In this document: positions 6,446 through 31,384 of the stretch, piece after piece
Layout of the letters: each line of letters begins with the position of its first letter
Position numbering within the stretch: position 1 is the stretch's first letter
Assembly (NCBI GenBank): GCA_041659445.1
Contig: JBAZYG010000002.1
Location: forward strand, 189,869-221,868
Reading direction: 5' to 3'
Origin: Candidatus Saccharimonadota bacterium
Lineage (GTDB): Archaea; Nanobdellota; Nanobdellia; Pacearchaeales; GW2011-AR1
Length of the DNA: 32,000 nucleotides
Position numbers and translations under genes: made by a program
Notes under the pieces: generated by a model
The model's input: the letters and a program-made list of their open reading frames with translations, nothing else
Database searches by the model: none
Told to the model about the DNA's origin: nothing

Positions 6446-6450
6446 ATAAA

Positions 6451-6483
6451 TTTTAATTTTTTTTCTTTTTCTTTTATTTTTTT
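6451..6483 (+). terminator. Oligo-T / CT-rich tract, putative terminator of the S-layer gene
   Basis: ttttaattttttttctttttcttttattttttt lies just after the stop at 6443-6445. Confidence 0.45.
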
Positions 6484-6575
6484 AAGGCTCAGTGTTAACT
6501 CTATTAAAAAAATAAATATAAAATTTATTAAGGCAAATTCAAAATCTTTTTATACTATCTTTATTTTTTTATATT

Positions 6576-7172
6576 ATGAAGAAGATTAAAACAAAATCTC
6601 AAGAAGAAAAAAAACAAAAAAGAAAACAATTAATCATTGGGTTGATTTTAGTTTTTGTAATGATAGCAAGCACGTTTGGAATTGTGATGAATTCTTTTGG
6701 AGAAAAATCAAATTCAAATGAAATAATAAATTATAACGGGGTTGAATTTATACATCAAAATAATTATTGGGTTTTTTCAATAGAATCTTATAATTTTGCT
6801 ATCTTAAATAATCCACAAGAATTAGAAAAATTTCAATTTAAAGGTTCAAAAACTTCTATAAAAGATTTAAGCACTTATGTAAATTTGCCTTTATATATTC
6901 AATCAAATGATTATTATCTAACAAATATAATAACTCAAGATTTTCAACCTTTTGTTGAGAGAATCCAATATGCTTGTTTAGAAAATAACACAGATTGCCC
7001 TGAAGATTATCCTATAAAAAATTGTCAAAATAATTTTATTATAATTTCATATTCTGAGAATTCAACAAGTTTAAGACAACAAGACAATTGTATTTTTTTA
7101 GAAGGAAATTCAGAAGAGTTAGTCAATCTTACAGATGTTTTTGTTTTAAAGACATTCAGGATTAGAGAATAA
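6576..7172 (+). CDS. Membrane-anchored extracellular protein, paralog A (unknown family)
   Basis: Lys-rich N-terminus, then TM helix LIIGLILVFVMIASTFGIVM. Shares the motif YNFAILNNPQELEKFQFKG with the next gene (YNFYLRTNPRQLVKMNFEG). Contains Cys pairs. Confidence 0.65.
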   Translation: MKKIKTKSQEEKKQKRKQLIIGLILVFVMIASTFGIVMNSFGEKSNSNEIINYNGVEFIHQNNYWVFSIESYNFAILNNPQELEKFQFKGSKTSIKDLSTYVNLPLYIQSNDYYLTNIITQDFQPFVERIQYACLENNTDCPEDYPIKNCQNNFIIISYSENSTSLRQQDNCIFLEGNSEELVNLTDVFVLKTFRIRE

Positions 7173-14636: not shown

Positions 14637-15236
14637 TTATAAATCTTTTTCCCAATATTTTTTTCCAAATTCATTGTAGTATTCCTGTTCTTTTTCCTTT
14701 AACTTTAAAATTTTTGGATTAGAATAAAAAATTTCTTTATTTTTAATTTCTAAATTTTTTACTTTCAAAATAGAGAAATTCATTGGAAGTGTTTTTGATT
14801 CAGGAGAAATATTTAATAAAATCAAGTTGAAATTTCTTTTATTCAAATTATTAAGTATAACCCCCTCTAAAATATTTCCTTTATATTTTATAGAATATAT
14901 TTTATTTTTTGAAACTTCTTTTTGTTTTTCATAAATTCCTTTTTTATTCAATAATTCTTTTATATAATTTGCTTGATAATAATCTTTATGATCTCCAAAA
15001 ATAATTTCATTATCTGTTAAAGCTCTAATATCTCGTATATCTGTTAATTCTAATTGATTTTCTTTTATTTTATATTTATTAAAATAAATTAAAACTGATT
15101 TTTGTGAATTTGGATTAACCCCTGCTAAAACCTCTTGCAATCCTTTTTTTCTCTTTTTTCCTAAGTAAACTACTTTTATATTGTAATTATAAACTCCATT
15201 AAGATTGTAAACTTCACCAAGTTCAAGATTTGTCAT
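14637..15236 (-). CDS. Hypothetical protein (199 aa) inserted between secE and spt5
   Basis: Long open frame. Possibly two internally similar halves, but that similarity is weak and by eye only. No family recognised. Confidence 0.5.
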   Translation of the reverse strand: MTNLELGEVYNLNGVYNYNIKVVYLGKKRKKGLQEVLAGVNPNSQKSVLIYFNKYKIKENQLELTDIRDIRALTDNEIIFGDHKDYYQANYIKELLNKKGIYEKQKEVSKNKIYSIKYKGNILEGVILNNLNKRNFNLILLNISPESKTLPMNFSILKVKNLEIKNKEIFYSNPKILKLKEKEQEYYNEFGKKYWEKDL

Positions 15237-15496: not shown

Positions 15497-15817
15497 TTAT
15501 TCAAATTGAATTGAAATATTTTCATCTTTATTAAAACCAAGACAGTATATACATTTATAATCACTTGTTGCAATATCTGGACCCATTGGAGATCCTCCTG
15601 ATTCTGTTATTTTTGTAAGTTCATCAAGTTTTTCTTTGTTCTTTTCTAAAACTGTAGGATCCTTATATCTAAAACTTATTGATTTAATTTTTTCACCATA
15701 AAAAGGATAATCTAATTCAATTTGTTCAACATGTCCTAAATCAAAAACAGCTGTTTTATCAACTGTAACTTTTGTATTTTCTTCTGTAAATTTTATTTCA
15801 ATTGTATTTTTTACCAT
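15497..15817 (-). CDS. Hypothetical protein (106 aa)
   Basis: Open frame between ftsZ and secE on the same strand. No family recognised. Confidence 0.45.
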   Translation of the reverse strand: MVKNTIEIKFTEENTKVTVDKTAVFDLGHVEQIELDYPFYGEKIKSISFRYKDPTVLEKNKEKLDELTKITESGGSPMGPDIATSDYKCIYCLGFNKDENISIQFE

Positions 15818-18038: not shown

Positions 18039-18428
18039 ATGGTTGCAAAAATTATCAATGCTACAGAAGCTCGTGTAGGTACAAATATTATAATCGAAGG
18101 TCAACCTTTTACTGTTAAGAAAATAGATATTTCAAAAACAGGAAAACACGGACATGCAAAATGTAGAATTGAAGCATCACATATGATGACTGAATCTAAA
18201 AAAGTTTTTGTAGTTCCAGGACATGACAGATTCGAAGTTCCAATGGTGAATAAAAAAAGAGCACAAGTTCTTTCACATCACGGAGATAAGGCAAGTGTTA
18301 TGGATTTAGAAACTTTTGAAACAATTGAGATAGATGTTCCAGAAGAATTAACTCATGAAATTCAAGAAAACGAAAATGTTGAATATTGGGATATTGAAGG
18401 AACTTTAATTCTTAAAAGAAAAGTATAA
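18039..18428 (+). CDS. eif5a: Translation initiation factor 5A (aIF5A)
   Basis: Hypusine-site motif SKTGKHGHAKCRIEA. 129 aa. TATA-like TTTTATAAATAT lies about 25 nt upstream of the ATG. Confidence 0.9.
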   Translation: MVAKIINATEARVGTNIIIEGQPFTVKKIDISKTGKHGHAKCRIEASHMMTESKKVFVVPGHDRFEVPMVNKKRAQVLSHHGDKASVMDLETFETIEIDVPEELTHEIQENENVEYWDIEGTLILKRKV

Positions 18429-18477
18429 TACTCAATTACATAAATCTTTAAAAAGATATTTAATTGATTTTTAGATA

Positions 18478-18852
18478 ATGGTTGATAAAAAGATAAAAAT
18501 GGATAATATTCATTTTATGAATGAAATGATTCCATATTCTTATTTGGAAACACTTTGTTGGGGTTTAAATGAAATTGCTTCTATGTCTCCAATAAATCCT
18601 ACTGAAAAAATAAAAAATAAATATCCAAATATTTCTGCAGAATCCCGAACAATTTATGTAAAAGTAATTCCAAATGAAATTCTTTATTTAGTTGAAGAAA
18701 AAGCTACGCCTAGGGGAAAGCTAGAATGTCCTATTAATTGTCGAGGTTATGTTCTTGATTTAAGAGAAGGTAAAGAATTGTTGTCTGTTTTAAAATTAGA
18801 AAGATTAGTTAAGATTATGGATATTCAAATTGGTTCTGATTTAATTGATTAA
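18478..18852 (+). CDS. Hypothetical protein (124 aa)
   Basis: Open frame downstream of aIF5A. No family recognised. Confidence 0.45.
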   Translation: MVDKKIKMDNIHFMNEMIPYSYLETLCWGLNEIASMSPINPTEKIKNKYPNISAESRTIYVKVIPNEILYLVEEKATPRGKLECPINCRGYVLDLREGKELLSVLKLERLVKIMDIQIGSDLID

Positions 18853-19020
18853 TAATTTTCAATCCCAATCTTTAAAAACCCTTTTTTTCTAAAGTAATTG
18901 TATTAAATAAAAACACTAAGAAATTTTGATGTTTGCGATTTCAATCAGAGGCAGTTAAAGAAATCGTCCTTCAGTGCAAATAGGAAGGTTGAACGTCAAG
19001 GAAACCTTGGTTTACTTACG

Positions 19021-19185
19021 ATGGGAACAAAAATACCTGAAGCACAAAATAGAATGTTTAGAAATGTCTTTGTTTGTAATAATTGTCATAGTAAAGTTCG
19101 AGCAGATGCACAAAGAGTTTTAAAAGGAAAAGTTAAATGCAGAAAGTGCAAAAAAAATTCATTCAGAGTTATAAAGAAAAAATAA
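19021..19185 (+). CDS. rpl40e: 50S ribosomal protein L40e
   Basis: Not in the ORF track (54 aa). My translation is MGTKIPEAQNRMFRNVFVCNNCHSKVRADAQRVLKGKVKCRKCKKNSFRVIKKK*. It has a CxxC...CxxC zinc ribbon and the basic pattern typical of archaeal L40e. Confidence 0.75.
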   Translation: MGTKIPEAQNRMFRNVFVCNNCHSKVRADAQRVLKGKVKCRKCKKNSFRVIKKK

Positions 19186-19249
19186 TTTTTAATCTATTTA
19201 CCTTACATTTTTAAACTCTAAATTTCTTTTAAATTAAAGAGGAACATAA

Positions 19250-20665
19250 ATGGAAACTTTTACTATTGTTGACTTATCATTATTAGTTGCTTTTGCAATT
19301 TTCGTTGGAATTTTTCTTTATATTAATCGTAGAAATCTTAAAAAAGACGGACTTTTCTTTTTGTATCGAACTAAATGGGGAATAAATTTAATAAATAAAA
19401 CTGCAAAAAAATATCCCAAGACATTGAAAGTTCTTGCATGGATTTCTGTAATTGTCGGATATATTTTGATGATTTTGATGGTTTATCTTTTTATAAGAAT
19501 TTTATGGATTTATCTTTTTCATGCAGATGTTGTTCGTGCAGTTAAATTACCTCCAGTTGCACCATTAATTCCTTATTTACCACAAATTTTCAAAGTGAGT
19601 TTTTTACCAAACTTTTATTTCATACATTGGATAATTATTTTAGCAGTCATTGCAATATTTCATGAATTTTTTCACGGAATTTTTGCAGCGCTATACAAAG
19701 TGAAAATCAAGCAAACAGGTTTTGGTTTTTTTCCATTTTTCTTACCAATTCTTCCAGCAGCTTTTGTTGAATTAGACGAGAAAGTCATGCAAAAAAAGAA
19801 AAATTTCCAGCAAAGAGCAGTTTTATCTGCAGGAACTTTTGCAAATATTTTAACTGCGCTTTTGGGCTTGATTATAATTTTTGTTTTTTTTCATTTTTCA
19901 TTTGCACCTTCAGGGGTAGTTTTTGATGACTATGCTTATGATGTGATAAATGTTTCTTCAGTAACAGCTGTCAACGGAATTTCATTATTAAATCCAACTT
20001 ATTCAGATATTTCTCCTTTAATTATAGATAAAGAAAAAAATTATGTTCAAGCAGGGAATTCTACTTATGCAGGAATAAAAGGTGTCACGTCAGATAAAAA
20101 ACAATTAGCAGTTTATTTTGATTCACCTGCAATTAATTCAGAAATTTTTGGAGCAATCATTAGTATTAATGGACAAGAAATTTCTAACTTAGAAGATTTT
20201 CAAAATGAATTATCTAAATATTCAGTTGGTGAAAAAATAATTCTTACAACAAAAACAGGTGATGAAATTAAAAATTATGAAATAAACCTTTCAGAAAATC
20301 CAGAAAATCCAGGAACATCTTGGTTAGGAATTAGTTTTTATGAAACAAATTCAAAAGGTGCAATGGCAAAAATTGTTGGATTTTTTTCATCATACAAAAA
20401 ACCACATATTTATTATGAAGAGAAATACAATGGTGCTCAGTTTATTTATGATTTTTTATGGTGGTTGGTTTTAATTGCATTTAGTGTGGCTTTAGTTAAC
20501 ATGCTTCCTATGGGTGTTTTCGACGGTGGAAGGTTCTTTTATTTAACAGTTTTTGCAATAACTAAAAGAGAAAAAATTGCAATGAAGTCATTTAAAATTT
20601 TCACATACATTTTATTGTTCTTGTTAATTTTGATTATGGTTTATTGGGCAAAAAGTTTTTTCTAA
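19250..20665 (+). CDS. Site-2 protease family (M50) membrane metalloprotease with PDZ-like insert
   Basis: HEFFHG (HExxH) in a TM helix. A second motif, NMLPMGVFDGG, lies near the C-terminus. The protein is polytopic, with a central soluble PDZ-like segment (ISINGQEISNLEDFQNEL). Confidence 0.85.
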   Translation: METFTIVDLSLLVAFAIFVGIFLYINRRNLKKDGLFFLYRTKWGINLINKTAKKYPKTLKVLAWISVIVGYILMILMVYLFIRILWIYLFHADVVRAVKLPPVAPLIPYLPQIFKVSFLPNFYFIHWIIILAVIAIFHEFFHGIFAALYKVKIKQTGFGFFPFFLPILPAAFVELDEKVMQKKKNFQQRAVLSAGTFANILTALLGLIIIFVFFHFSFAPSGVVFDDYAYDVINVSSVTAVNGISLLNPTYSDISPLIIDKEKNYVQAGNSTYAGIKGVTSDKKQLAVYFDSPAINSEIFGAIISINGQEISNLEDFQNELSKYSVGEKIILTTKTGDEIKNYEINLSENPENPGTSWLGISFYETNSKGAMAKIVGFFSSYKKPHIYYEEKYNGAQFIYDFLWWLVLIAFSVALVNMLPMGVFDGGRFFYLTVFAITKREKIAMKSFKIFTYILLFLLILIMVYWAKSFF

Positions 20666-20714
20666 TGTAGTTTATCACAATAATCTTTATATATCTCTTT
20701 TTCAATAAAAAAAT

Positions 20715-21287
20715 ATGAAATTTTTAGTAAGAGGAACTGGTGAAAAAAAAGGAAGTTTTCTTGAAGCTACATTAGAAGAAGAATATTATAAAATTCCTAG
20801 AACTCCCACAGATATTGAAGTTGACCCAAGAAAATTAATTCATTTTGGAACAGATTTAGTAGATATAAGGTCATCTATAGATATACAACAACATATTGAG
20901 AAAATGGAAGAATCAGGAGTTGACTATCTTTACATTTCTGAAGGAGAAGATGTTGATTTTGCACAAGCAGGAAAAAGATTAGCAACCATAACTGCATATA
21001 TAGATTCTCAAGAAATTAAAGATTATTATAAAAAAGATATTGGGAAAGAGTTAATAGATTGGAATTTAATAATAGAGATTGAAAAAGGAACATCTAAAAG
21101 AATGCGGGGACATACTGCAAGAATAAGAGATACAATGATAAGCCGTAATTACACTATCTTTGATAACGAAAAAATTTTGGATTTTTATTTGTGCATAAAA
21201 AATGAAAACCGTTATTCTCGAAACTTTGGAAAAAAATCTTTTGATACACTTGAAAAATATCTTAAGAAAATAAATATGATTGATTAA
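20715..21287 (+). CDS. Hypothetical protein (190 aa)
   Basis: Long open frame. No family recognised. Confidence 0.5.
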   Translation: MKFLVRGTGEKKGSFLEATLEEEYYKIPRTPTDIEVDPRKLIHFGTDLVDIRSSIDIQQHIEKMEESGVDYLYISEGEDVDFAQAGKRLATITAYIDSQEIKDYYKKDIGKELIDWNLIIEIEKGTSKRMRGHTARIRDTMISRNYTIFDNEKILDFYLCIKNENRYSRNFGKKSFDTLEKYLKKINMID

Positions 21288-21363
21288 TAAACTATTTTCT
21301 TAAACAAAAGTTTATATTCTAAATTATAACAATATTTATAAATGAAGATTTTATTTGTTTTTT

Positions 21364-21693
21364 ATGGTAGGATTAGTTGATATGATGAATATTCAAGCAT
21401 TAAATCATGTTGAATCAATTTTGAAAGATTGTTCAACCAATGAATTATCTGAATTTCTTTTAGAAGTTAAGAAAAGATTTGAAAATAAAACTCTTGAAAG
21501 GCCAACAAAAGAGGGAATTTATCCCAATGAATCTTCTTATTTTACAATGGGTTTAGCTTGTGTAAATATTTTAAAAAAAAGAGAAGGAAAATGGTTTGTT
21601 TATAATCTAACTGGAATAAAAAAACCAAAAACCTTATCAGAAAAAATTAAGTTTAATTTAAAAGAAATTTATTATAGTTTGAGTTATAGCTAA
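21364..21693 (+). CDS. Hypothetical protein (about 109 aa)
   Basis: The ORF track starts at TTG 21355. The first ATG is at 21364, and the true start is uncertain. No family recognised. Confidence 0.4.
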   Translation: MVGLVDMMNIQALNHVESILKDCSTNELSEFLLEVKKRFENKTLERPTKEGIYPNESSYFTMGLACVNILKKREGKWFVYNLTGIKKPKTLSEKIKFNLKEIYYSLSYS

Positions 21694-21723
21694 GTTTAAA
21701 ACTTCTTTTTTCTCTTTAAATTT

Positions 21724-22761
21724 ATGATTCCATCAAAAGTTCAAGAAATTTTGAAAAAAATGCATTATGAAATAGTTGGAAATCATTCTGCAGTTCAAGT
21801 TTGCCGATGGACAAAAAATTCACTTAATGGAAAAGGAGTTTGTTGGAAAGAAAAATTTTATGGAATTGAAAGTTCAAGATGTTGTCAAATGTCGCCTTCT
21901 GTAATGTGGTGTGAAAATGCATGTTTGCATTGTTGGAGACCTATAGAATATAATCTTGGAAAAAATATGAACAAAGTTAAAATAGATGAACCAAAAAAAA
22001 TTTTAGACGAAATAATTAAAGCAAGAAAAAAATTAATGATTGGTTATAAAGGAGATTTAAAAATTTCAAGAAAAAAAGTGAAAGAAGCATTTGAGCCAAT
22101 ACTTTTTACTTTGTCTTTATCAGGTGAAGCAACACTTTATCCAAAATTGCCAGAATTAATTCAAGAAATAAGAAAACGAAAAGCAATTTCGTTTATTGTC
22201 ACAAACGGACAAAACCCAGAAATGATAAAAAAATTAGAAAAACTAAAATCTTTACCAACGCAATTGACAATTTCTATGAATGCTCCAAATGAAAAACTTT
22301 TTCAGATTTGGCATAACTCAAAAAATAAGGATTCTTGGAAGAGATTTAATAAAACTTTGGAATTAATGAAAAAATTAAAAGGAAAAACAAGAAGAGCAAT
22401 TAGGTTGACATTAGTAAAATATTTAGAAAATTCAAAAAGCAATAAGTTAAATTCAATTACAAACATGTCTGAAAAAAATGTAAAAGAGTATTCTAATTTG
22501 ATAAAAAAAGCAAATCCTGATTTTATTCATGTTAAAGGATTTAAATCATTAGGATATTCAAGAAAAAGATTTGGATATGATAAACAGCCATTTCATGAAG
22601 ATGTTGAAAACTATGCAAAAAAAATTATGAAAGAATTAAATAAAAACATTAAATCTGAAAAAGATAAATGGAAAATCCAAGGGCAAGAAAAAAGAAGTTG
22701 TGTTATTTTAATTTCACGTCGAGAAAAAAAAGATTTAAAGATTAAAAAAGAAGAGATTTAA
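21724..22761 (+). CDS. taw1: tRNA 4-demethylwyosine synthase Taw1/TYW1 (radical SAM)
   Basis: HSAVQVCRWTKNSLNGKGVCWKEKFYGIESSRCCQMSPSVMWCENACLHCWRP carries the TYW1 N-terminal Cys motif plus the CxxxCxxC radical-SAM cluster. Confidence 0.85.
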   Translation: MIPSKVQEILKKMHYEIVGNHSAVQVCRWTKNSLNGKGVCWKEKFYGIESSRCCQMSPSVMWCENACLHCWRPIEYNLGKNMNKVKIDEPKKILDEIIKARKKLMIGYKGDLKISRKKVKEAFEPILFTLSLSGEATLYPKLPELIQEIRKRKAISFIVTNGQNPEMIKKLEKLKSLPTQLTISMNAPNEKLFQIWHNSKNKDSWKRFNKTLELMKKLKGKTRRAIRLTLVKYLENSKSNKLNSITNMSEKNVKEYSNLIKKANPDFIHVKGFKSLGYSRKRFGYDKQPFHEDVENYAKKIMKELNKNIKSEKDKWKIQGQEKRSCVILISRREKKDLKIKKEEI

Positions 22762-22766
22762 AATTT

Positions 22767-23093
22767 TTAAAGAATAAATTTTTCCATAATTGAATTGGGT
22801 TTTTCATCTTTTCTGTGAGAAAAATAATTTGTAGTATTTTTTAATCCCAATATAAAACTTAATCCTCCAACAACATACGCTAAATTATATACCTTTTTGA
22901 AATTATTTTCTTTATCAAATTTTTTATTTACATACAAAGCACTAGTTATTATAATTGTTCCCAAAATAATTTCAACTAATCCTTTTTTTATTTTTGAATT
23001 AAGTTTCTTTTTAAATTCTTTTTCATTCAAGATATTGAGGTTAATTTTTCCATCTATGTAATCTTTTGTTTTTCTTATATAATAATTTTCCAT
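22767..23093 (-). CDS. Small membrane protein (108 aa)
   Basis: Two hydrophobic helices (GLVEIILGTIIITSALYV, YNLAYVVGGLSFILGL). Convergent with taw1. Confidence 0.45.
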   Translation of the reverse strand: MENYYIRKTKDYIDGKINLNILNEKEFKKKLNSKIKKGLVEIILGTIIITSALYVNKKFDKENNFKKVYNLAYVVGGLSFILGLKNTTNYFSHRKDEKPNSIMEKFIL

Positions 23094-23099
23094 TTTATT

Positions 23100-23300
23100 T
23101 TAACAATCACAATTTACAGGATATTTATTTATTGAAGGTTCAAATGAATTAATTGTATTTTCATATTCTTCCATATTTTCAAAACCATAATTTTTTATTC
23201 TTTTTAAAAAATTATTATAATGATTTTCTAAAGAATTAATCATTTCGTCATTTTCTTTTGGAAAAATTTTTTGCATTAATTTATTTATTAGGTTATTCAT
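23100..23300 (-). CDS. Hypothetical small protein (66 aa)
   Basis: Open frame ending ...VNCDC. Preceded by an 80-nt AT-rich, promoter-like gap at 23301-23380. Confidence 0.4.
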   Translation of the reverse strand: MNNLINKLMQKIFPKENDEMINSLENHYNNFLKRIKNYGFENMEEYENTINSFEPSINKYPVNCDC

Positions 23301-23380
23301 TTTTTATTGTATCTTATAGTGTATTTAATTATTATGATAGTCTATAATATATATCTTTTATTTGTTAGAAAATAGCAGAT

Positions 23381-24073
23381 TTAAATTGTGAGATATAATA
23401 ATTTAGAGCAAATCCAAGAAAACTCTTTATATCCTTGGTTTGAAATTGCATTTATAATTCCATCTTTAATAATAATCTTTCCATGACTATTTTCTATTTT
23501 TTGAACACCTTTTTCCAAAATTAATTTTGTATCTCCTAATTTCATATGATTGTATAAAGAATTAACCCACTCTTGTGTTAAAACGCATTCTTCGTTTTTT
23601 TCTGGGAGCATTTGTAAATTATTCGGTAAAGGATAATACAAAGTTTTATTATCATCATGTAAAACTTTTGGAGTATCTATATTTGGATTAAGCAATTCAA
23701 TTAATTTAGAAGCAGTATTAAATGCAATAGCATTTTCAACAAAATAATCTAAGTTATGTCCACTTACAATATTTCCAAATTCTTCTTTTAATTCAAACCA
23801 TTTTCCATCATTATTAATATAAAAAGTTATTCCCTCATTTGAAAATCCAAAATAAGGATAACTTGAACTTGTATTTGGGTCAAAGAATTCAATTTCTTTT
23901 TTAACTTCAGGAAGTAATTTTTTTGCTAATTCTTCTTTTTTGTCTATTAATAATTTCTTTAATTTTTTTTGCTCGTTTTTATCTCCTGGGAAATAATAAA
24001 TTGCTCCTGGATTTAAATGAGGTGTATCATATCCAAAATAAGCTCCTTGTTTTTCCATTTTCTCAATCAACAT
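23381..24073 (-). CDS. ORFan operon gene 13: hypothetical protein (230 aa)
   Basis: Largest and last gene of the coupled operon. An alternative ATG at 24058 would avoid the 11-nt overlap. No family recognised. Confidence 0.55.
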   Translation of the reverse strand: MLIEKMEKQGAYFGYDTPHLNPGAIYYFPGDKNEQKKLKKLLIDKKEELAKKLLPEVKKEIEFFDPNTSSSYPYFGFSNEGITFYINNDGKWFELKEEFGNIVSGHNLDYFVENAIAFNTASKLIELLNPNIDTPKVLHDDNKTLYYPLPNNLQMLPEKNEECVLTQEWVNSLYNHMKLGDTKLILEKGVQKIENSHGKIIIKDGIINAISNQGYKEFSWICSKLLYLTI

Positions 24074-24377
24074 TAGCTTTCTTTTTTAAATAATGATTAG
24101 CTGTAAGATATTCTCCAAACAATAATGGTTTGAATACCCAAGATTCTTTCTTAAAATCTTCTTTTAATTCTTTTGCTTTGTCAATTCTTTTTTCTAATGT
24201 TGGTTTTTCTTTAATTTTTTGATTTGTTTCATAACCAACGTACCCATTTGTTAATAAAAAAGAACTTATTATAAATGTTGAACAAAAAACTTTAAAAAAT
24301 AATTCTGGATCAAAAAAAGGTTTTGGATTTTCATAGTGATTAAATAAATTATAAAATGGTGGGAATACAATTATCAT
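24063..24377 (-). CDS. ORFan operon gene 12: small membrane protein
   Basis: Start moved from 24404 to ATG 24377, which forms a TAAAATG junction with the upstream stop. Hydrophobic segment FFKVFCSTFIISSFLLTNGYVGY. Confidence 0.5.
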   Translation of the reverse strand: MIIVFPPFYNLFNHYENPKPFFDPELFFKVFCSTFIISSFLLTNGYVGYETNQKIKEKPTLEKRIDKAKELKEDFKKESWVFKPLLFGEYLTANHYLKKKANVD

Positions 24378-24378
24378 T

Positions 24379-24789
24379 TTAAAATCTAACTTCAATTTTG
24401 TCAAATTCAGGAGATAATTTTTCTTTTATTTGTTTTAAAAAATCATTACTTACAATTCCTATTCCATTAAAATGATTTTCACTAGTAATTCCACTCTTTA
24501 ATATTATTGCAGGTCCTTTTTCCTGGATTTTTCCAAGTTTTAATTTTGTTTTTATTCCTTCACAAATTTCTTCTAAATTATTTCCAGAACCACCTCCTCC
24601 ATCAAAAAAATCTTTATCAAAAAGAGAATAAGAGTATTGTAATTTTGGAGCAGAATTTCTTTGTGATAACGCTTCCATGTAACCTGGATGTCTTGTATTA
24701 GCCATATAATTTAATTCATCTTTGTCAGCAATTCCTCCTTGATTATTGTTGATGCATATGATTATTTCTTTTGTTTCATCTTGTTCCAT
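24379..24789 (-). CDS. ORFan operon gene 11: hypothetical protein (136 aa) with internal GGGGSG linker
   Basis: Open frame with TAAAATG junctions on both sides. No family recognised. Confidence 0.5.
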   Translation of the reverse strand: MEQDETKEIIICINNNQGGIADKDELNYMANTRHPGYMEALSQRNSAPKLQYSYSLFDKDFFDGGGGSGNNLEEICEGIKTKLKLGKIQEKGPAIILKSGITSENHFNGIGIVSNDFLKQIKEKLSPEFDKIEVRF

Positions 24790-24790
24790 T

Positions 24791-25045
24791 TTATTTTATT
24801 TTTTTTATTCCAAGTTTATTAATTAAAGATTTTGGAAGTTTTTCAATGCATTCATCTACTAATTGGTTGATGTCATTTTTTAATTCTTTGAGTCTATTTT
24901 CATCTTTTGATGTTTCACCAATTTCTATCCTGCAAATTAATCCGTCATAGTTACCCTTTTTCCAAGCATACGTATTGTAAACTAAAATCGAATCTTCAAT
25001 TATTTTTTTAACTTCTTGTTTCGTATAAAATTCTTTTTCTTCCAT
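24791..25045 (-). CDS. ORFan operon gene 10: hypothetical protein (84 aa)
   Basis: Open frame, tightly coupled to its neighbours. No family recognised. Confidence 0.5.
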   Translation of the reverse strand: MEEKEFYTKQEVKKIIEDSILVYNTYAWKKGNYDGLICRIEIGETSKDENRLKELKNDINQLVDECIEKLPKSLINKLGIKKIK

Positions 25046-25047
25046 TT

Positions 25048-25398
25048 TTACAAATCAACAACTCCATCTTTTGTTAAAGCAGCGAATCTTACTCCAACAG
25101 GCAAATTAATTAATGCAGAAACCAAAGCCATGTGTTCTTTTCCGTCGCCAGAAGCAATACTTAATGCAACTTCCATTCCATTAATTTTTCCTTGAAGTTT
25201 TTTTAATAAATCATCTCTTAAATCTTTTATTTTTGCATTTAAATCAGCTTTAATAAATTCAAATTTTTTTTCATGCTTAAAATTTTTTGCAAATTCATCA
25301 CCAATTAAAATTATATTATCCCATTCTCCATATTTCATTAATCCAGAAATTTGTGCCCATGTTCCTTCTCCTCTTGAAAGTAATGCAACTAATTCCAT
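25048..25398 (-). CDS. ORFan operon gene 9: minimal CARF-like / Rossmann-like domain protein (116 aa, no effector domain)
   Basis: Pattern ELVALLSRGEGTWAQISGLM...NIILIGDE...FEFIKADLN...MEVALSIASGDGKEHMALVSALINLPVGVRFAALT. It resembles the CARF layout: strand - Gly-rich loop - helix, then a late xxGGxK-like loop followed by a helix. Similarity is by eye only. Confidence 0.35.
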   Translation of the reverse strand: MELVALLSRGEGTWAQISGLMKYGEWDNIILIGDEFAKNFKHEKKFEFIKADLNAKIKDLRDDLLKKLQGKINGMEVALSIASGDGKEHMALVSALINLPVGVRFAALTKDGVVDL

Positions 25399-25399
25399 T

Positions 25400-25786
25400 T
25401 TAACAATAATCCTCTTTATCTTTTACTCTTCTTAAATCAATTTTTTCAGGTTTGGAATTTTTTTCAATATCTGTTCTAAAACCTAAAGTTCCATTAATTC
25501 TATAACTACAAGTTCCTGCTGTTCCATCTAATATTTTTTCAAAATTATTTTCTCTTAATTCATCTCTTTTACCAAGGTAATCACATTGTGTTAAAGAAGA
25601 AACACACCCCACGCAGTTTTCATCAGCGAATCTTCTGTAGTTTTGTTCTTTGCTAGCTCTTTCTTCTTCATTTTTAAAAAGTCCAATTAATTTTTTTCTA
25701 AATTCTTTTGTTCTTTTTGTTTTTCCTCTTTCAATAAACAAATTTTTGAAATCAAAAGTTATCCAATTTGGTAATTTTTTTGTCAT
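25400..25786 (-). CDS. ORFan operon gene 8: Cys-containing hypothetical protein (128 aa)
   Basis: CVGCVSSLTQC...GTCSY...DYC. Basic N-terminus. TAAAATG junctions on both sides. Confidence 0.5.
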   Translation of the reverse strand: MTKKLPNWITFDFKNLFIERGKTKRTKEFRKKLIGLFKNEEERASKEQNYRRFADENCVGCVSSLTQCDYLGKRDELRENNFEKILDGTAGTCSYRINGTLGFRTDIEKNSKPEKIDLRRVKDKEDYC

Positions 25787-25787
25787 T

Positions 25788-26111
25788 TTAATTTTCTTTT
25801 TTTAGTAAATTATATTTTGCTAATAATTCATAAAATTGTTTATTTGGTGTTTTATTTCTAAAATTGCAAGGACCAAGAATTCTTTCTTCTACTTCTTTAT
25901 CTAATCCTGTTATTTTTTTATCTGAAAGTGAAATGAATTTTCTTACAGAATCCTCTAATTTTTTTAATCTTATAACTTGTACTAAACCTTTTTCATCTTT
26001 TAAAAAACTTGTAATAGTATTGCATTTTTCTCCATTTAAGAATAAATCATAATTTGGTAAATAAATTGCATCTAACATTCCAAGCTTGTAAATTTTATTT
26101 TCGTTTATCAT
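25788..26111 (-). CDS. ORFan operon gene 7: hypothetical protein (107 aa)
   Basis: ATGA overlap with the upstream gene. No family recognised. Confidence 0.5.
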   Translation of the reverse strand: MINENKIYKLGMLDAIYLPNYDLFLNGEKCNTITSFLKDEKGLVQVIRLKKLEDSVRKFISLSDKKITGLDKEVEERILGPCNFRNKTPNKQFYELLAKYNLLKKEN

Positions 26112-26515
26112 TTTATTTGATATCTTATATCTTCTTTTATTTCGTTAGCTAGTTCTTCTAATCTTTTTCCAATGTCTTCCCAAACAGAACCATTGACTGG
26201 AAAGTATTTTTCAAGTTTACTTCTTTTTATAAGTTCGTCATTTACTTTTGATAAATATAAAGTTCTTTTTGTTAAACCTTCTTCTTTTAAATATTCAGGT
26301 AAATCATCATAAACGCAGGTGTTATAAGGTTCTTTTTTTATGCCTAATATGAAATTTTTTGCTCTATCTTTAAATTGATTAAGAAATTTATAAGTTAAAT
26401 CTAAGCCTGTTTCCATTTCAATTATTTTTAATTCTAAATCAAAATATTCTTTTGTCTTTTCAAATTGTTTTATTGCTTCTTCTCTAGCTTCTTCTAAATT
26501 AGGCCCTTGTTTCAT
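26108..26515 (-). CDS. ORFan operon gene 6: hypothetical helical protein (135 aa)
   Basis: Open frame rich in charged helices. No family recognised. Confidence 0.5.
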   Translation of the reverse strand: MKQGPNLEEAREEAIKQFEKTKEYFDLELKIIEMETGLDLTYKFLNQFKDRAKNFILGIKKEPYNTCVYDDLPEYLKEEGLTKRTLYLSKVNDELIKRSKLEKYFPVNGSVWEDIGKRLEELANEIKEDIRYQIK

Positions 26516-26539
26516 TTTATTTAATTTTCAAGAAAATCT

Positions 26540-26917
26540 TCATTTATAAGTATTATTGTGTTCAAAATTCCAAAAATTGAGATTTCCTTTTGCTGGAAAG
26601 GGTTTAATCCTTTTTGGATTTATTAATATAAAACCATATTTTCCCCAGAAAGAATTTGCCAAATGTTTATTTTTATCTTTCATGTGTTCTTTTTCTGTTT
26701 TATAATTTTTAACATCAATTAATTTTGCTTTTCCAACAATGCAACCTAAAGGAAGTTTTTCAAATCCAAATTTTTTCATAGCTTTTTTATCTGGAATTTT
26801 TGAAGCATGAATCAAAAATTCTCCTCTAAATTTGGTATTCCATTTTCTTAATTCAATAGTTTTTTTACCAGAAACAATTAATTCTGCAAATGGTTGTTTT
26901 AAAGACAATGCTTTCAT
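26540..26917 (-). CDS. ORFan operon gene 5: ASCH domain protein (PUA-like beta-barrel, RNA-binding superfamily)
   Basis: MKALSLKQPFAELIVSGKKTIELRKWNTKFRGEFLIHASK... matches the ASCH N-terminal signature (S-[IL]-x-Q-P-[WF]-A-x-L-I-x-x-G-x-K-x-x-E-x-R) as I recall it. Confidence 0.75.
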   Translation of the reverse strand: MKALSLKQPFAELIVSGKKTIELRKWNTKFRGEFLIHASKIPDKKAMKKFGFEKLPLGCIVGKAKLIDVKNYKTEKEHMKDKNKHLANSFWGKYGFILINPKRIKPFPAKGNLNFWNFEHNNTYK

Positions 26918-26947
26918 TTATTATTAATAATGAACGAATATAAAAAT

Positions 26948-27280
26948 TTATTTTTCTTTGTTATTTTTTAAAAAAGTTATAAATCCTTCTTTAAATTTTT
27001 CATTGTCTGGAATCCAAGCTTCAGGAAGTTCATTAAGAGAATATGTATCACCAGAATATATCGGAGGCGATAAATTATAACTTTTTATATGTATTAATTT
27101 ATGTTTAGAATCATCTGATTCGTTGAAGATTATTTCATACATATAATAATCATTTAATTTTATTTCTTCTTCTGAAAAATCTTTTACTTTGCTTTTCCAG
27201 TTATATGCATTTCCTTCTCCCATATATATGACTTCATTAAAATTACAAATCACCAATAATTTAGATTCTTTATTTTCCAT
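26948..27280 (-). CDS. ORFan operon gene 4: hypothetical protein (110 aa)
   Basis: Open frame, preceded by a 72-nt AT-rich gap that may hold an internal promoter. No family recognised. Confidence 0.5.
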   Translation of the reverse strand: MENKESKLLVICNFNEVIYMGEGNAYNWKSKVKDFSEEEIKLNDYYMYEIIFNESDDSKHKLIHIKSYNLSPPIYSGDTYSLNELPEAWIPDNEKFKEGFITFLKNNKEK

Positions 27281-27352
27281 ATTTCTTATTATAATTTTTG
27301 ATATTTAAAAATTGTTATACTAAAAGAATCAATCTTTTTCTATATTTTGGAA

Positions 27353-27568
27353 TTATTTTGTAGAATAAATTTCAAAGTAATATTTCTTATCTTCTTCAGA
27401 ATAGTTTATATGGATAAGATAATCTCTATGTTCAGTTTTTCCAGTCATTTCAGATTTTTCTAAATCATTAAGGCCTTCTATTGTAAGTGCGAGATCCAAT
27501 CTACCTTTGTACTCGCCACTCTGTAAAGCATTCTCCAAATCAAATTTTTTTAGGCTTTTTGCTTTCAT
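27353..27568 (-). CDS. ORFan operon gene 3: hypothetical protein (71 aa)
   Basis: Start moved from 27586 to ATG 27568, which forms a TAAAATG junction with the upstream stop at 27570-27572. Confidence 0.45.
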   Translation of the reverse strand: MKAKSLKKFDLENALQSGEYKGRLDLALTIEGLNDLEKSEMTGKTEHRDYLIHINYSEEDKKYYFEIYSTK

Positions 27569-27569
27569 T

Positions 27570-27767
27570 TTATATTTTTGCTTCAAGTTTTCCTATTCTT
27601 CCTTTAGAATCTTTGGAAGTTTCAAATACTATTTTAACAGGCTTTGTTCCGTCATCTAAAATCACTTCTACTTTGTGAATATCTTTGTTTCCTTCATAAC
27701 TGTTTTTTAAAAGTGCATAAAGGTCTTCGATTGTTGCATAGTCTAATTTATAATTTGAATTTTCCAT
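27570..27767 (-). CDS. ORFan operon gene 2: hypothetical protein (65 aa)
   Basis: Open frame with TAAAATG junctions on both sides. Confidence 0.45.
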   Translation of the reverse strand: MENSNYKLDYATIEDLYALLKNSYEGNKDIHKVEVILDDGTKPVKIVFETSKDSKGRIGKLEAKI

Positions 27768-27768
27768 T

Positions 27769-27957
27769 TTATTTTTTTTGATTAAGATTATATTCTTTTA
27801 AAAGTTCAATTATAACTTTATTTTGATAATATAATGCCTTAATAGCATCAATTACTCCATCATGATACATTGTCATTTTATTTTTTTCTGATTGTTTTAT
27901 TAGCGTTTCTGCTTCTTTCAAGGTTTTTTCAAGTTCATTTATTCTTCCTTCTTCCAT
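27769..27957 (-). CDS. ORFan operon gene 1: small coiled-coil protein (62 aa)
   Basis: First gene of the operon. TATA-like TATATAAATATTT lies about 40 nt upstream on the minus strand. The start is only about 75 nt from the 23S processing stem. Confidence 0.45.
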   Translation of the reverse strand: MEEGRINELEKTLKEAETLIKQSEKNKMTMYHDGVIDAIKALYYQNKVIIELLKEYNLNQKK

Positions 27958-28031
27958 GATTTTTCAACTTCATTTATACTTTTTAAATATTTATATACTA
28001 AAAAAATAAAAGAAAAAAATCTTCAAAGAAT

Positions 28032-28086
28032 AAAGTAGTGGAAAGTACAACAAATTTTAAAATTTATTTTATTTAAAGACAATCTT
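28032..28086 (-). other. 3' half of the 23S rRNA processing stem (two helices)
   Basis: 28032-28049 is the exact reverse complement of 30932-30949 (18 bp). 28073-28086 is the exact reverse complement of 30914-30927 (14 bp). Confidence 0.8.
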
Positions 28087-28109
28087 TTTGAAATTAAAAA
28101 TTTCAAATT

Positions 28110-30910
<2,801 letters not shown>

Positions 30911-30913
30911 AAT

Positions 30914-30949
30914 AAGATTGTCTTTAAGACGTGTACTTTCCACTACTTT
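30914..30949 (-). other. 5' half of the 23S rRNA processing stem
   Basis: Complementary to 28032-28049 and 28073-28086 (see that feature). Confidence 0.8.
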
Positions 30950-31267: not shown

Positions 31268-31384
31268 TGGACCTGTCGGGAATTGAACCCGAATCTCATC
31301 CGTTCTTTGGAACCAAAGGACGTTACGAAAATGAAGTTTTCAGTTCCGTGCAAGGGACGTATTCTGCCGTTGGACTACAGGCCC
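31268..31384 (-). tRNA. tRNA-Ala (anticodon UGC) with a roughly 46-nt intron at the canonical 37/38 position
   Basis: Reverse complement reads GGGCCTG TA GTCC AACGGCA GAAT A CGTCC CTTGCA [CGGAACTG...CCAAAGAA] C GGATG AGAT TCGGG TTCAATT CCCGA CAGGTCC A. The acceptor, anticodon (CGTCC/GGATG) and T stems all pair. It sits in the usual archaeal 16S-23S spacer location. Confidence 0.8.

What the first reader, a model, noticed from the sequence alone, without database searches (positions are those of the whole stretch)
23381..27957. Thirteen-gene, translationally coupled ORFan operon (ASCH + minimal CARF-like protein) abutting the 23S rRNA gene: best candidate for an undescribed system
Seen in sequence:
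- Thirteen co-directional small ORFs (62-230 aa) are packed with 0-4 nt gaps or overlaps. Six junctions are the identical heptamer TAAAATG and one is ATGA.
- There is only one internal gap large enough for a promoter (27281-27352).
- By eye I recognise only two folds: an ASCH domain (26540-26917, an RNA-binding / PUA-like superfamily that includes nucleoside and RNA-acting enzymes) and a 116-aa CARF/Rossmann-like protein (25048-25398).
- The rest comprise one Cys-rich protein, one membrane protein and nine proteins with no recognisable motif.
- I see no integrase, capsid, terminase, P-loop ATPase or nuclease motif.
- The operon starts about 75 nt downstream of the 23S processing stem, on the same strand as the rRNA operon. 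Read-through from the rRNA promoter is therefore conceivable.

Inference, three competing hypotheses:
1. A ligand-sensing, RNA-directed defence or RNA-modification module.
2. A domesticated or decayed virus or plasmid segment of a DPANN archaeon.
3. Lineage-specific host-interaction genes.
Basis: partly seen in the sequence, partly recalled or inferred. Interest (0 to 1): 0.7.

Follow-up and report, generated by a model that had tools for sequence, protein, structure and literature searches.

The report
Patchwork small-gene array around mini-CARF gene
The tightly packed gene string next to the rRNA operon of this tiny archaeon (a Pacearchaeote) is real. It is not one conserved 13-part machine but two widely conserved housekeeping-type genes joined with about a dozen rare accessory genes, at a spot where related genomes keep swapping small genes.

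Summary
The ORF array is real: 13 minus-strand ORFs cover 97% of 23381-27957, against about 1% in shuffles. It continues through two more ORFs to 22767, where it meets Tyw1 head-on.

It is not an ORFan operon.
- O9 (116 aa) has more than 3,266 homologue clusters at 78-87% identity. One confident AlphaFold model best matches CARF domains.
- O5 is a TRIP4-type ASCH protein with more than 2,736 clusters.
- Both are Pacearchaeota core genes and were never found linked in about 100 related loci.
- O13 belongs to a family found in two DPANN phyla, with a pLDDT-96 model that matches nothing in PDB or BFVD.
- Nine of the ten other ORFs searched have 1-10 homologue clusters. O4 has none.

In relatives, O9 lies between the L1-L10-P1 operon (or rRNA) and Tyw1, flanked by 0-8 unrelated small co-directional ORFs (107 families). 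Homologues of O3, O6, O8, O11, O12 and O14 do recur beside O9 elsewhere, in the same order.

I found no defence, viral or plasmid signal. Two T7 runs and a TATA-like box separate the array from the 23S gene.

Best reading: a flexible accessory-gene slot around a conserved mini-CARF gene. A real O9-centred module is not excluded. Interest is moderate.

The parts
28032..28049 (-). 3' half of the 23S rRNA processing stem. It pairs with 30932-30949.
   Evidence: An 18-nt perfect complement was found in the fold of the two 23S flanks. Rfam places the 23S gene at 28097-30920.
28000..28019 (-). Two T7 runs, a likely archaeal oligo-T terminator for the rRNA transcript.
   Evidence: They are the only intergenic T runs of 6 or more in the 23S-O1 spacer. 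That they terminate transcription is an inference.
27959..28010 (-). Promoter-like stretch upstream of O1. It holds TATA-like TATATAAA (starting at 27997) and TTTAAAAA (starting at 27987, 30 nt before the ATG).
   Evidence: The 52 nt are 71% identical, in the same register, to the stretch upstream of O4 (family D1). TATA-like boxes were located. Function is inferred.
27769..27957 (-). O1, 62 aa, helical. A rare family.
   Evidence: Two homologue clusters at 48-58% identity. No Pfam match.
27570..27767 (-). O2, 65 aa. A rare family.
   Evidence: Two homologue clusters at 45-48% identity.
27353..27568 (-). O3, 71 aa from the ATG (77 aa from the TTG at 27586).
   Evidence: One homologue cluster at 41% identity. 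A profile match lies two genes upstream of the O9 homologue in L039 (hmmsearch E 5e-5; hhalign probability 81%).
27281..27352 (-). Internal spacer with TATA-like TTTAAATA (starting at 27309, 29 nt before the O4 ATG). A probable second promoter.
   Evidence: Function is inferred.
26948..27280 (-). O4, 110 aa. The only true ORFan among those searched.
   Evidence: It matched only itself among 1.84 billion representative proteins.
26540..26917 (-). O5, 125 aa. An ASCH protein of the TRIP4/GKER type and a core gene of Pacearchaeota.
   Evidence: Pfam ASCH, E 5e-11. The best PDB sequence match is the ASCH domain of human TRIP4, E 7e-10. The GxKxxExR octapeptide is present at G17-R24. There are 2,736 homologue clusters at 68-89% identity. 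In relatives the gene sits in other contexts.
26108..26515 (-). O6, 135 aa. An accessory family.
   Evidence: About 10 clusters. A 62%-identical homologue lies immediately upstream of the O9 homologue in L036-L038.
25788..26111 (-). O7, 107 aa. A rare family.
   Evidence: Two clusters at 39-41% identity.
25400..25786 (-). O8, 128 aa. A small protein with four conserved Cys residues (C58, C61, C68, C93), probably zinc-binding.
   Evidence: Two clusters and their alignment. A 52%-identical homologue lies three genes upstream of an O9 homologue in L046.
25048..25398 (-). O9, 116 aa. A protein with a mini-CARF-like fold; a core gene of Pacearchaeota and the anchor of the array.
   Evidence: More than 3,266 clusters, the listed ones at 78-87% identity. 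The AlphaFold model has pLDDT 86.8 and the topology beta-alpha-beta-alpha-beta-alpha-beta-alpha-beta-beta. The Foldseek top hits are Can2, Csx1-Crn2, Sis0455, Cam1, Card1 and Sso2081, with TM-score up to 0.74. S8/G10/G12 and S83/G84/G86/K87 are invariant.
24791..25045 (-). O10, 84 aa. An accessory family.
   Evidence: About 7 clusters at up to 46% identity.
24379..24789 (-). O11, 136 aa. An accessory family.
   Evidence: About 6 clusters. A 50%-identical homologue lies immediately downstream of the O9 homologue in L039-L044.
24063..24404 (-). O12, 113 aa, with one hydrophobic segment. Its start codon is uncertain (TTG).
   Evidence: Hydropathy peak of 1.57. A 67%-identical homologue lies immediately downstream of the O9 homologue in L048.
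23381..24073 (-). O13, 230 aa. A member of a family found in two DPANN phyla, with a confidently predicted fold of unknown type.
   Evidence: About 60 clusters, including Pacearchaeota and Micrarchaeaceae. P18, H106 and P135 are invariant, with H106 in an 'HNLD' motif. Model pLDDT 96.2, pTM 0.92. No match in PDB or BFVD; TM-score at most 0.27. Not linked to O9 homologues elsewhere.
23100..23300 (-). O14, 66 aa, with a C-terminal YPVNCDC motif.
   Evidence: Five clusters. A 54%-identical homologue lies two genes downstream of an O9 homologue in L047.
22767..23093 (-). O15, 108 aa, with one hydrophobic segment. It is the last gene of the array and is convergent with Tyw1.
   Evidence: Not included in the homologue searches.
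21724..22761 (+). Tyw1 (radical SAM, wyosine formation). The conserved convergent boundary of the slot.
   Evidence: Pfam PF04055 and PF08608. It lies next to O9 homologues in most relatives.

Best explanation
The array is a chromosomal patchwork, not a dedicated 13-part system.

Its anchor is O9, a strongly conserved 116-aa protein with a CARF-like Rossmann fold. In nearly all relatives O9 sits between the ribosomal L1-L10-P1 operon (or, in two lineages, the rRNA operon) and the convergent Tyw1 gene.

The short stretches on either side of O9 act as a flexible slot. Small genes are gained and lost there, and they are always oriented like O9.

Inferred mechanism: a newcomer inserted in this orientation is expressed at once, by read-through and by stop-start translational coupling (TAAAATG), from promoters that already exist. 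Such insertions are therefore tolerated and accumulate.

This genome holds the largest version seen, with eight genes upstream of O9 and six downstream. By rearrangement it has also captured a second core gene, the TRIP4-type ASCH protein O5. I infer that O5 is a tRNA/RNA N4-acetylcytidine deacetylase or an RNA binder.

The array is probably transcribed from two TATA-like promoters of its own, upstream of O1 and O4, after the rRNA transcript has terminated at two T7 runs.

Shown: gene content, conservation, synteny and folds. Inferred: the transcription units, the 'hitch-hiking' mechanism and all biochemical roles.
For: 1. Only O9 of the 15 ORFs is found in 28 Tyw1-anchored loci (tblastn, E up to 1).
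2. In about 100 loci carrying an O9 homologue, the order is P1<L10<L1< [0-2 ORFs>] O9> [0-8 ORFs>] <Tyw1/<M50.
3. The 171 flanking co-directional ORFs fall into 107 BLAST families, 80 of them singletons. hhalign adds no hidden relationships.
4. The O9-Tyw1 junction holds 1.40 extra ORFs on average, and 72% of loci have at least one. Most other conserved junctions hold 0.06-0.33 (M50-Tyw1 0.51; the thinly sampled P1-f14, P1-f11 and f11-f14 junctions hold more).
5. The few cargo genes with a Pfam domain share no theme: YbjQ, PPIase, APH, GNAT, GINS51, RNase T, MoxR.
6. O5 and O9 are each core genes. They were never linked within 8-10 kb elsewhere.
7. GC content equals that of the flanks. No attachment-site-like repeats were found.
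8. No hits in PADLOC, in PHROG hallmark families, in viral contigs, or in the phage and plasmid collections.
9. Two T7 runs lie in the spacer, and TATA-like boxes lie 29-30 nt before both the O1 and the O4 ATG.
Against: - All four small accessory families looked up without reference to O9 (O6, O8, O11, O14) turned out to lie within three genes of an O9 homologue, in the same polarity and order as here. O12-like and O3-like genes do too. This could mean functional coupling rather than a neutral slot.
- The accessory proteins diverge no faster than Tyw1 (50-67% against 44-70% identity). They are therefore maintained genes, not junk.
- No close relative is available. Backbone proteins are only about 50-80% identical, so gain and loss events cannot be timed.
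- The transcription units are untested.
Confidence: 0.55

Rival explanations
1. This is a real O9-centred module. The mini-CARF protein binds a nucleotide or an RNA-end ligand as a dimer. It then signals to, or is regulated by, a lineage-variable set of small partner proteins encoded beside it (O3, O6, O8, O11, O12, O14 and others). This would resemble the way CARF sensors pair with interchangeable effectors.
For: - CARF-like fold, with invariant loop residues after strands beta1 and beta4.
- Six accessory families recur next to O9 homologues in other lineages, co-directional and in the same order.
- Junctions are tight, consistent with translational coupling.
Against: - Many lineages have an O9 homologue with no flanking accessory gene at all, for example L003, L025, L012, L060 and L065. 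Partners are therefore not obligatory.
- The cargo is extremely heterogeneous, with 107 families. The few annotated members are unrelated housekeeping enzymes.
- No effector-type domain such as a nuclease, protease or pore-former was found, and there was no PADLOC hit.
- Linkage is equally expected from inheritance of a syntenic slot.
- Only one of the five AlphaFold models of O9 was confident.
Confidence: 0.22
2. The array is a decayed integrated virus or plasmid segment, or two such segments on either side of O9, that inserted next to the rRNA/tRNA operon.
For: - Short, tightly packed, co-directional genes of unknown function resemble early regions of archaeal viruses and plasmids.
- The ASCH domain also occurs in phages (phrog_3193, E 7e-36; 111 phage records).
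- In Micrarchaeaceae, O13 homologues lie beside a transposase, a methyltransferase and a PIN gene.
Against: - No integrase, replication, capsid or packaging gene was found.
- No flanking direct repeats were found.
- GC content is identical to the flanks.
- Two core cellular genes, O5 and O9, lie inside the array.
- There are no relatives in IMG/VR contigs for O6, O9 or O13.
- tblastn found no match in the phage or plasmid collections.
- The O13 model has no match among viral structures.
- The order is collinear with arrays in other lineages.
Confidence: 0.08
3. The array is an extension of the rRNA operon. The genes are co-transcribed with 16S-tRNA-23S and act in ribosome or tRNA maturation, with ASCH and the mini-CARF protein as RNA-binding factors and Tyw1 nearby.
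For: - The array lies on the same strand, 74 nt after the processing stem.
- An rRNA operon also lies upstream of the O9 array in the L039 lineage.
- O9 homologues otherwise neighbour the L1-L10-P1 operon.
- ASCH proteins deacetylate tRNA ac4C (bioRxiv 10.64898/2026.02.27.708502).
Against: - Two T7 runs and a TATA-like box lie between the stem and O1.
- In most relatives no rRNA gene lies within 8-10 kb of the O9 homologue.
- In L039 a Na/Ca exchanger gene separates the rRNA operon from the array.
- O9 homologues are divergent from the L1 operon, not co-transcribed with it.
- The accessory genes are dispensable across lineages.
Confidence: 0.07

Closest known systems
Flexible genomic islands, i.e. 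variable gene slots at conserved chromosomal positions in prokaryotes (general knowledge)
   Same: The boundaries are conserved (L1 operon or rRNA on one side, Tyw1 or M50 on the other). The content differs between related lineages. Most cargo has unknown function. GC content does not deviate.
   Different: The slot is very small (0-8 genes). Its cargo is strictly co-oriented with one conserved anchor gene and packed with stop-start overlaps. No integrase, tRNA target or mobile-element hallmark is present. The cargo is not enriched in surface or defence genes as far as can be annotated.
Standalone CARF proteins, i.e. CRISPR ring nucleases: Crn1/Sso2081 and Sis0455 (PDB 7z55; PMC9638899)
   Same: O9's model has the CARF topology. 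Foldseek ranks Sis0455, Sso2081, Can2, Cam1 and Card1 at the top. O9 has conserved Ser/Gly residues after strand beta1 and S-G-x-G-K after beta4, where CARF proteins bind their ligand.
   Different: O9 is 116 aa. It is shorter than Sis0455 (188 aa) and lacks the C-terminal insertion or HTH domain. It has no sequence-level match to any CARF family. No cas gene was noted in the neighbourhoods whose called genes carry Pfam tables; the metagenome loci were not screened for cas genes. It is near-universal and highly conserved in a lineage where, by general knowledge, type III CRISPR is uncommon. Its neighbours are ribosomal protein genes.
The RtcR CARF domain, a CARF domain used outside CRISPR to sense RNA damage (PMC9650030)
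   Same: It is a precedent for a CARF fold serving housekeeping RNA metabolism rather than defence, which is the sort of role O9's context suggests.
   Different: In RtcR the CARF domain is fused to an AAA+ domain and an HTH domain. O9 is the bare domain. No RtcA or RtcB gene was seen nearby.
ASCH proteins of the GKER subgroup: the TRIP4 ASCH domain and TthASCH (PDB 2DP9), described as tRNA ac4C deacetylases (bioRxiv 10.64898/2026.02.27.708502; YqfB, PMC6972931)
   Same: O5 matches Pfam ASCH. It aligns over its full length to the TRIP4 ASCH domain (E 7e-10). It carries the G-x-K-x-x-E-x-R octapeptide.
   Different: Its activity is untested. In relatives the gene is not located near the O9 homologue, so its presence in this array is specific to this lineage.

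Membership tests
CARF domain superfamily (O9) | A Rossmann-like alpha/beta fold with four parallel core strands and a C-terminal beta5-beta6 hairpin | tested here: met
   The model has the element order E-H-E-H-E-H-E-H-E-E, with pLDDT 86.8 and pTM 0.82. Foldseek's top matches are dominated by CARF proteins, with TM-score 0.55-0.74 and E about 2e-3. Caveat: only one of the five models was confident.
   S8, G10 and G12 follow beta1. S83-G-D-G-K87-E-H follows beta4. All are invariant in 24 sequences. The match to the published motif comes from memory. An SLOG/LOG-like GGxGTxxE reading is also possible, although no LOG structure appeared in the top 50 hits.
CARF domain superfamily (O9) | Sequence-profile membership in a described CARF family | tested here: not met
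   No hit in Pfam, NCBIfam, PADLOC or PDB sequences.
Type III CRISPR / cyclic-oligoadenylate ancillary module | Genomic association with cas10 or other cas genes or a cOA synthase, plus a fused or adjacent effector | tested here: not met
   In the O9-homologue loci whose called genes come with Pfam tables, no cas family appears. The backbone around O9 homologues is ribosomal proteins, Tyw1 and M50 peptidase. The 13 proteins gave no significant PADLOC hit. Whole genomes were not searched.
CARF domain superfamily (O9) | Homodimer that binds a cyclic or linear oligonucleotide | not testable with these tools
   This needs biochemistry or a multimer prediction.
ASCH domain (O5) | Match to the Pfam ASCH profile above the gathering score | tested here: met
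   PF04266, 43.5 bits against a cut-off of 21.2. All listed homologues carry PF04266.
ASCH domain (O5) | The GxKxxExR octapeptide with the catalytic Lys and Glu (bioRxiv 10.64898/2026.02.27.708502) | tested here: met
   The sequence G17-K-K19-T-I-E22-L-R24 is read directly from the translation. It aligns with the TRIP4 ASCH domain.
ASCH domain (O5) | ac4C deacetylase or RNA-binding activity | not testable with these tools
   This needs an enzyme assay.
Integrated virus or plasmid | Integrase or recombinase, attachment-site direct repeats, replication or structural hallmark genes, deviating composition | tested here: not met
   None was found in Pfam or PHROGs. Only AT-rich chance-level repeats were found. 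GC content equals the flanks. There were no hits in viral contigs, phages or plasmids.
Conserved multi-gene system (operon conserved as a unit) | The same gene set co-occurring in related genomes | tested here: not met
   No locus other than the same population (L033 and L034, 99.5-100% identical) carries more than two of the 15 families together.
Single operon (co-transcription) | One promoter, no internal terminator, coupled translation | tested here: inconclusive
   Stop-start junctions of 0-4 nt support translational coupling. A second TATA-like box lies in the 72-nt spacer. T6-T7 runs occur inside O4, O7, O11 and O12. No transcript data were available.

The most novel reading that the evidence does not exclude
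The 116-aa mini-CARF protein is the hub of an unrecognised nucleotide- or RNA-end-sensing system in Pacearchaeota that has no link to CRISPR. Under this reading its partners are small, interchangeable, lineage-specific proteins encoded on either side of it, and this genome carries the most elaborate version. The confidently folded but unmatched O13 family would be one of its enzymes.
Probability: 0.13. Interest if true: 0.75.

Novelty: new variant of a known kind. Interest (0 to 1): 0.42.

Why it matters
DPANN archaea have tiny genomes in which a large share of genes are unannotated. This locus gives three concrete handles.
1. O9 belongs to a very strongly conserved family of bare CARF-fold proteins, with more than 3,000 sequence clusters. 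It sits beside ribosomal protein genes and has no CRISPR context. It would be a candidate for the smallest CARF protein and for a housekeeping use of that fold.
2. O13 belongs to a family found in at least two DPANN phyla. Its model is near-perfect by confidence, yet it has no structural relative in PDB or BFVD.
3. The locus is a well-delimited, easily recognised slot where small genes turn over. That makes it a convenient natural system for studying how reduced genomes acquire and express new genes.

The work also removes a false lead: the array should not be treated as a single 13-component defence or RNA-modification machine.

Tried and rejected
- A concatenated query of O9-O13 in the search for homologous proteins failed. 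The word pre-filter (8,000 candidates) did not even recover the query's own proteins. The single hit, P0014, did not align to O11, the one segment I compared it with. The same trick did work with the index-free search of protein representatives.
- The sister contig L033 was meant to give dN/dS. It is 99.5% identical, with only three differences in the array, all in O11. The remaining differences lie at the 23S end of the contig, so it was uninformative.
- The O13 alignment was too divergent for a viral-contig pattern scan. Single-protein scans for O13, O9 and O6 found nothing.
- tblastn of 11 concatenated ORFs against the phage and plasmid collections gave no match.
- Profile searches of PDB sequences with the O9 and O13 alignments gave nothing significant.
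- Pfam and PHROGs scans of 34 accessory homologues and 37 O13-family members gave nothing.
- hhalign of every window family, O9 included, against the 107 accessory clusters found only the relationships BLAST had already found. There are no hidden O9 paralogues.
- Rfam at E up to 1 over 22700-28110 found no RNA family.
- The bacterial promoter and terminator scan equalled its shuffles and does not apply to archaea.
- An integron-like cassette array was rejected. The junctions are 0-4 nt, leaving no room for attC-like sites, and no repeat family was found.
- JGI's label 'UPF0332' (HEPN-like) for O1 and 'ERCC4-related helicase' for some O9 homologues were not supported by any profile search here.

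Full report
**Source and setting**

Exact look-ups place the window on a 221,868-bp contig of a Candidatus Pacearchaeota metagenome-assembled genome (MAG).
- GC content is about 25% across protein-coding DNA, and the array does not differ from its flanks.
- On the minus strand, Rfam finds the 16S gene (31471 to the window end), an intron-containing tRNA (31268-31384) and the 23S gene (28097-30920).
- The rest of the window encodes ordinary cellular genes: an S-layer-like protein, FtsZ, ribosomal protein L11, an FKBP, aIF5A, an M50 peptidase and Tyw1.

**Checking the observation**

All 13 ORFs exist as described.
- They cover 97% of 23381-27957. In 500 shuffles the mean was 0.2 ORFs and 1% coverage. 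In a 25%-GC genome this cannot be chance.
- Junctions are -26 to +2 nt, apart from spacers of 24, 30 and 72 nt.
- Seven start codons are preceded by TAAA. Five of those TAAs are the upstream gene's stop codon. The O6/O7 junction is an ATGA overlap.
- The 3' half of the 23S processing stem lies at 28032-28049, and the O1 ATG lies 74 nt downstream.

**Family assignments**

- Pfam, NCBIfam, PHROGs and PADLOC recognise only O5, as an ASCH protein.
- O5 aligns over its full length with the ASCH domain of human TRIP4 (E 7e-10). It carries the GxKxxExR octapeptide whose Lys and Glu are catalytic in ASCH tRNA-ac4C deacetylases (bioRxiv 10.64898/2026.02.27.708502).
- O9 has no sequence-level family. 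A model built on 24 homologues has pLDDT 86.8, though only one of the five models was confident.
- That model has the beta-alpha-beta-alpha-beta-alpha-beta-alpha-beta-beta order of a CARF domain. Foldseek's best PDB matches are Can2, Csx1-Crn2, Sis0455, Cam1, Card1 and Sso2081, with TM-score up to 0.74 and E about 2e-3.
- Residues after beta1 (S8, G10, G12) and after beta4 (S83, G84, G86, K87) are invariant.

**Not ORFans**

- O9 has more than 3,266 clusters at 90% identity, the listed ones 78-87% identical to it.
- O5 has more than 2,736 clusters at 68-89% identity.
- Both are core genes of Pacearchaeota/Nanoarchaeota.
- A 1,200-aa concatenation of eleven other ORFs was searched with phmmer against 1.84 billion representative proteins. 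The numbers of homologue clusters were:

| ORF | Clusters |
|---|---|
| O13 | about 60 |
| O6 | about 10 |
| O10 | about 7 |
| O11 | about 6 |
| O14 | 5 |
| O8, O7, O1, O2 | 2 each |
| O3 | 1 |
| O4 | none |

- The homologues conserve clear motifs. One example is the four Cys residues of O8.
- They are 40-62% identical. That is no more diverged than Tyw1 in the same lineages (44-70%), so these are maintained genes.
- None of 34 such homologues has a Pfam match or a credible PHROG match.

**O13**

- Its family occurs in Pacearchaeota and Micrarchaeaceae.
- P18, H106 and P135 are invariant, with H106 in an 'HNLD' motif.
- The model has pLDDT 96.2 and pTM 0.92.
- Foldseek finds nothing in PDB (best E 0.076, TM-score at most 0.27) or in BFVD (TM-score at most 0.25).
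- Elsewhere, O13 homologues are not next to an O9 homologue. In one locus the order is PCNA-O13h-NUDIX. In Micrarchaeaceae they lie beside a transposase, a methyltransferase and a PIN gene.

**Synteny**

- Twenty-eight loci anchored on Tyw1 from GTDB species share the window's backbone from about 11.7 to 22.8 kb.
- Of the 15 array ORFs, only O9 is present in them, always just past Tyw1 and convergent with it.
- Gene tables show that O9 homologues are divergent from the L1-L10(P0)-P1 ribosomal operon.
- A further 80 loci anchored on O9 from metagenomes show the same architecture.
- The architecture is P1<L10<L1< [0-2 small ORFs>] O9> [0-8 small ORFs>] <Tyw1 or <M50.
- The 171 flanking co-directional ORFs form 107 BLAST families, 80 of them singletons.
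- Profile-profile comparison reveals no hidden relationships to the window's families or to O9.
- Only about ten have Pfam domains, and these share no theme.
- The O9-Tyw1 junction carries 1.40 extra ORFs on average, and L1-O9 carries 0.56. Most other conserved junctions carry 0.06-0.33 (M50-Tyw1 0.51). Three thinly sampled junctions (P1-f14, P1-f11, f11-f14) carry 1.0-3.8.
- No O5 homologue occurs in any of these loci. O5's own relatives lie next to PolD and NUDIX genes, or next to a TFS-like zinc-ribbon gene and an HD-domain gene.

**Linkage that does exist**

Contigs were looked up for homologues found independently of position.

| Loci | Gene order (> and < show direction) |
|---|---|
| L036-L038 | f41 > O6h > O9h > f42 > <Tyw1 |
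| L039-L044 | rRNA operon > Na/Ca exchanger > 82 aa > O3-like > 104 aa > O9h > O11h > 77 aa > <Tyw1 |
| L046 | O8h > 88 aa > 97 aa > O9h |
| L047 | O9h > 79 aa > O14h |
| L048 | O9h > O12h |

Order and polarity match the window in every case. This fits either inheritance of a syntenic slot with heavy differential loss, or a functional tie to O9. The data cannot separate the two.

The only loci carrying the whole array, L033 and L034, are 99.5-100% identical to the window and so represent the same population.

**Mobile-element and defence tests**

- No integrase or hallmark gene was found.
- No attachment-site-like repeats were found.
- GC content does not shift.
- O6, O9 and O13 have no relatives in IMG/VR contigs.
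- tblastn found no matches in 50,697 phage or 72,556 plasmid records.
- There is no significant PADLOC hit.
- ASCH domains do occur in phages, but O5's close relatives are cellular.

**Transcription signals (inferred)**

- The 23S-O1 spacer holds, in order, the processing stem, two T7 runs (28000-28019) and the TATA-like boxes TATATAAA and TTTAAAAA. The last lies 30 nt before the ATG.
- The 72-nt spacer holds TTTAAATA 29 nt before the O4 ATG.
- The two upstream stretches are 71% identical over 52 nt in the same register.
- This suggests two leaderless or short-leader transcription units, O1-O3 and O4 onward, independent of the rRNA promoter.
- No Rfam family lies in the region.

**Verdict**

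- The interpretation as one undescribed 13-gene system is not supported. The array is a lineage-specific patchwork of two core genes that are normally unlinked, one family found in two DPANN phyla, and about a dozen rare accessory genes. It occupies a recurrent variable slot around the mini-CARF gene.
- The most interesting residue is threefold: the O9 family itself, the unmatched O13 fold, and the unexplained tendency of small co-directional genes to collect around O9.
- I put the slot model at 0.55, an O9-centred functional module at 0.22, a mobile-element remnant at 0.08 and an rRNA-operon extension at 0.07.

Noticed in passing
window 21724-22761 (Tyw1), compared with loci L001-L127: Across 35 loci, Tyw1 identity to the window falls as O9 identity rises (Spearman -0.65). 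M50, aIF5A, FKBP, FtsZ and L11 all rise with O9 identity. This suggests two Tyw1 types, that is, replacement by a foreign copy at the same position within Pacearchaeota.
   Followed up: partly
L033 (ENA k141_412394, 10,825 bp), equivalent to window 18050-28873: This contig is 99.5% identical to the window and carries archaeal 23S sequence plus the same 15 ORFs. Yet NCBI holds it in a 'Candidatus Shapirobacteria' (CPR bacterium) MAG under locus tags WCT51_044xx-045xx. It is almost certainly mis-binned.
   Followed up: partly
window 31268-31384 (-): Rfam calls a 117-nt tRNA in the 16S-23S spacer, but ARAGORN does not. It is probably an intron-containing tRNA. No 5S rRNA gene was found anywhere in the window.
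   Followed up: no
L039 3620-7230: In this related lineage the 23S rRNA gene spans 3.6 kb and contains an ORF for a LAGLIDADG homing endonuclease (5703-6218).
   Followed up: no
L084 and L124: Two copies of the O9-family gene lie in tandem or near-tandem: O9(127)>f41(136)>O9(116) in L084 and O9(108)>O9(150) in L124. These may be duplications of the mini-CARF gene, or a split gene.
   Followed up: no
window 20715-21287 and 21355-21693 (+); 14637-15236 and 15497-15817 (-): These ORFs also have no counterpart in the syntenic relatives, and the two that were scanned (20715-21287 and 14637-15236) have no Pfam match. They sit in other small variable slots of the same backbone (M50-Tyw1 averages 0.51 extra ORFs).
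   Followed up: partly
L131-L136 (Micrarchaeaceae), genes around 6001-6708: The O13-family gene lies next to a DDE transposase. A few genes away are an N6/N4 DNA methyltransferase and a PIN-domain gene. This hints that the family travels with mobile or variable DNA in another DPANN phylum.
   Followed up: no
window 4046-6445 (+): A 799-aa protein matches the S-layer outer domain (PF05124) and lies in the only protein-coding stretch with raised GC, 0.33-0.36 against about 0.25.
   Followed up: no
window 27769-27957 (O1) and O9 homologues P0024, P0025 and P0068: JGI labels O1 'UPF0332 family' (HEPN-like) and some O9 homologues 'ERCC4-related helicase'. No profile search here supports either label.
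   Followed up: partly
L031 10417-16581: On a 765-kb contig, the slot between the O9 homologue and Tyw1 holds seven larger genes, including a MoxR-type AAA+ ATPase (401 aa) and a 589-aa protein. The slot can therefore also take in large cargo.
   Followed up: no
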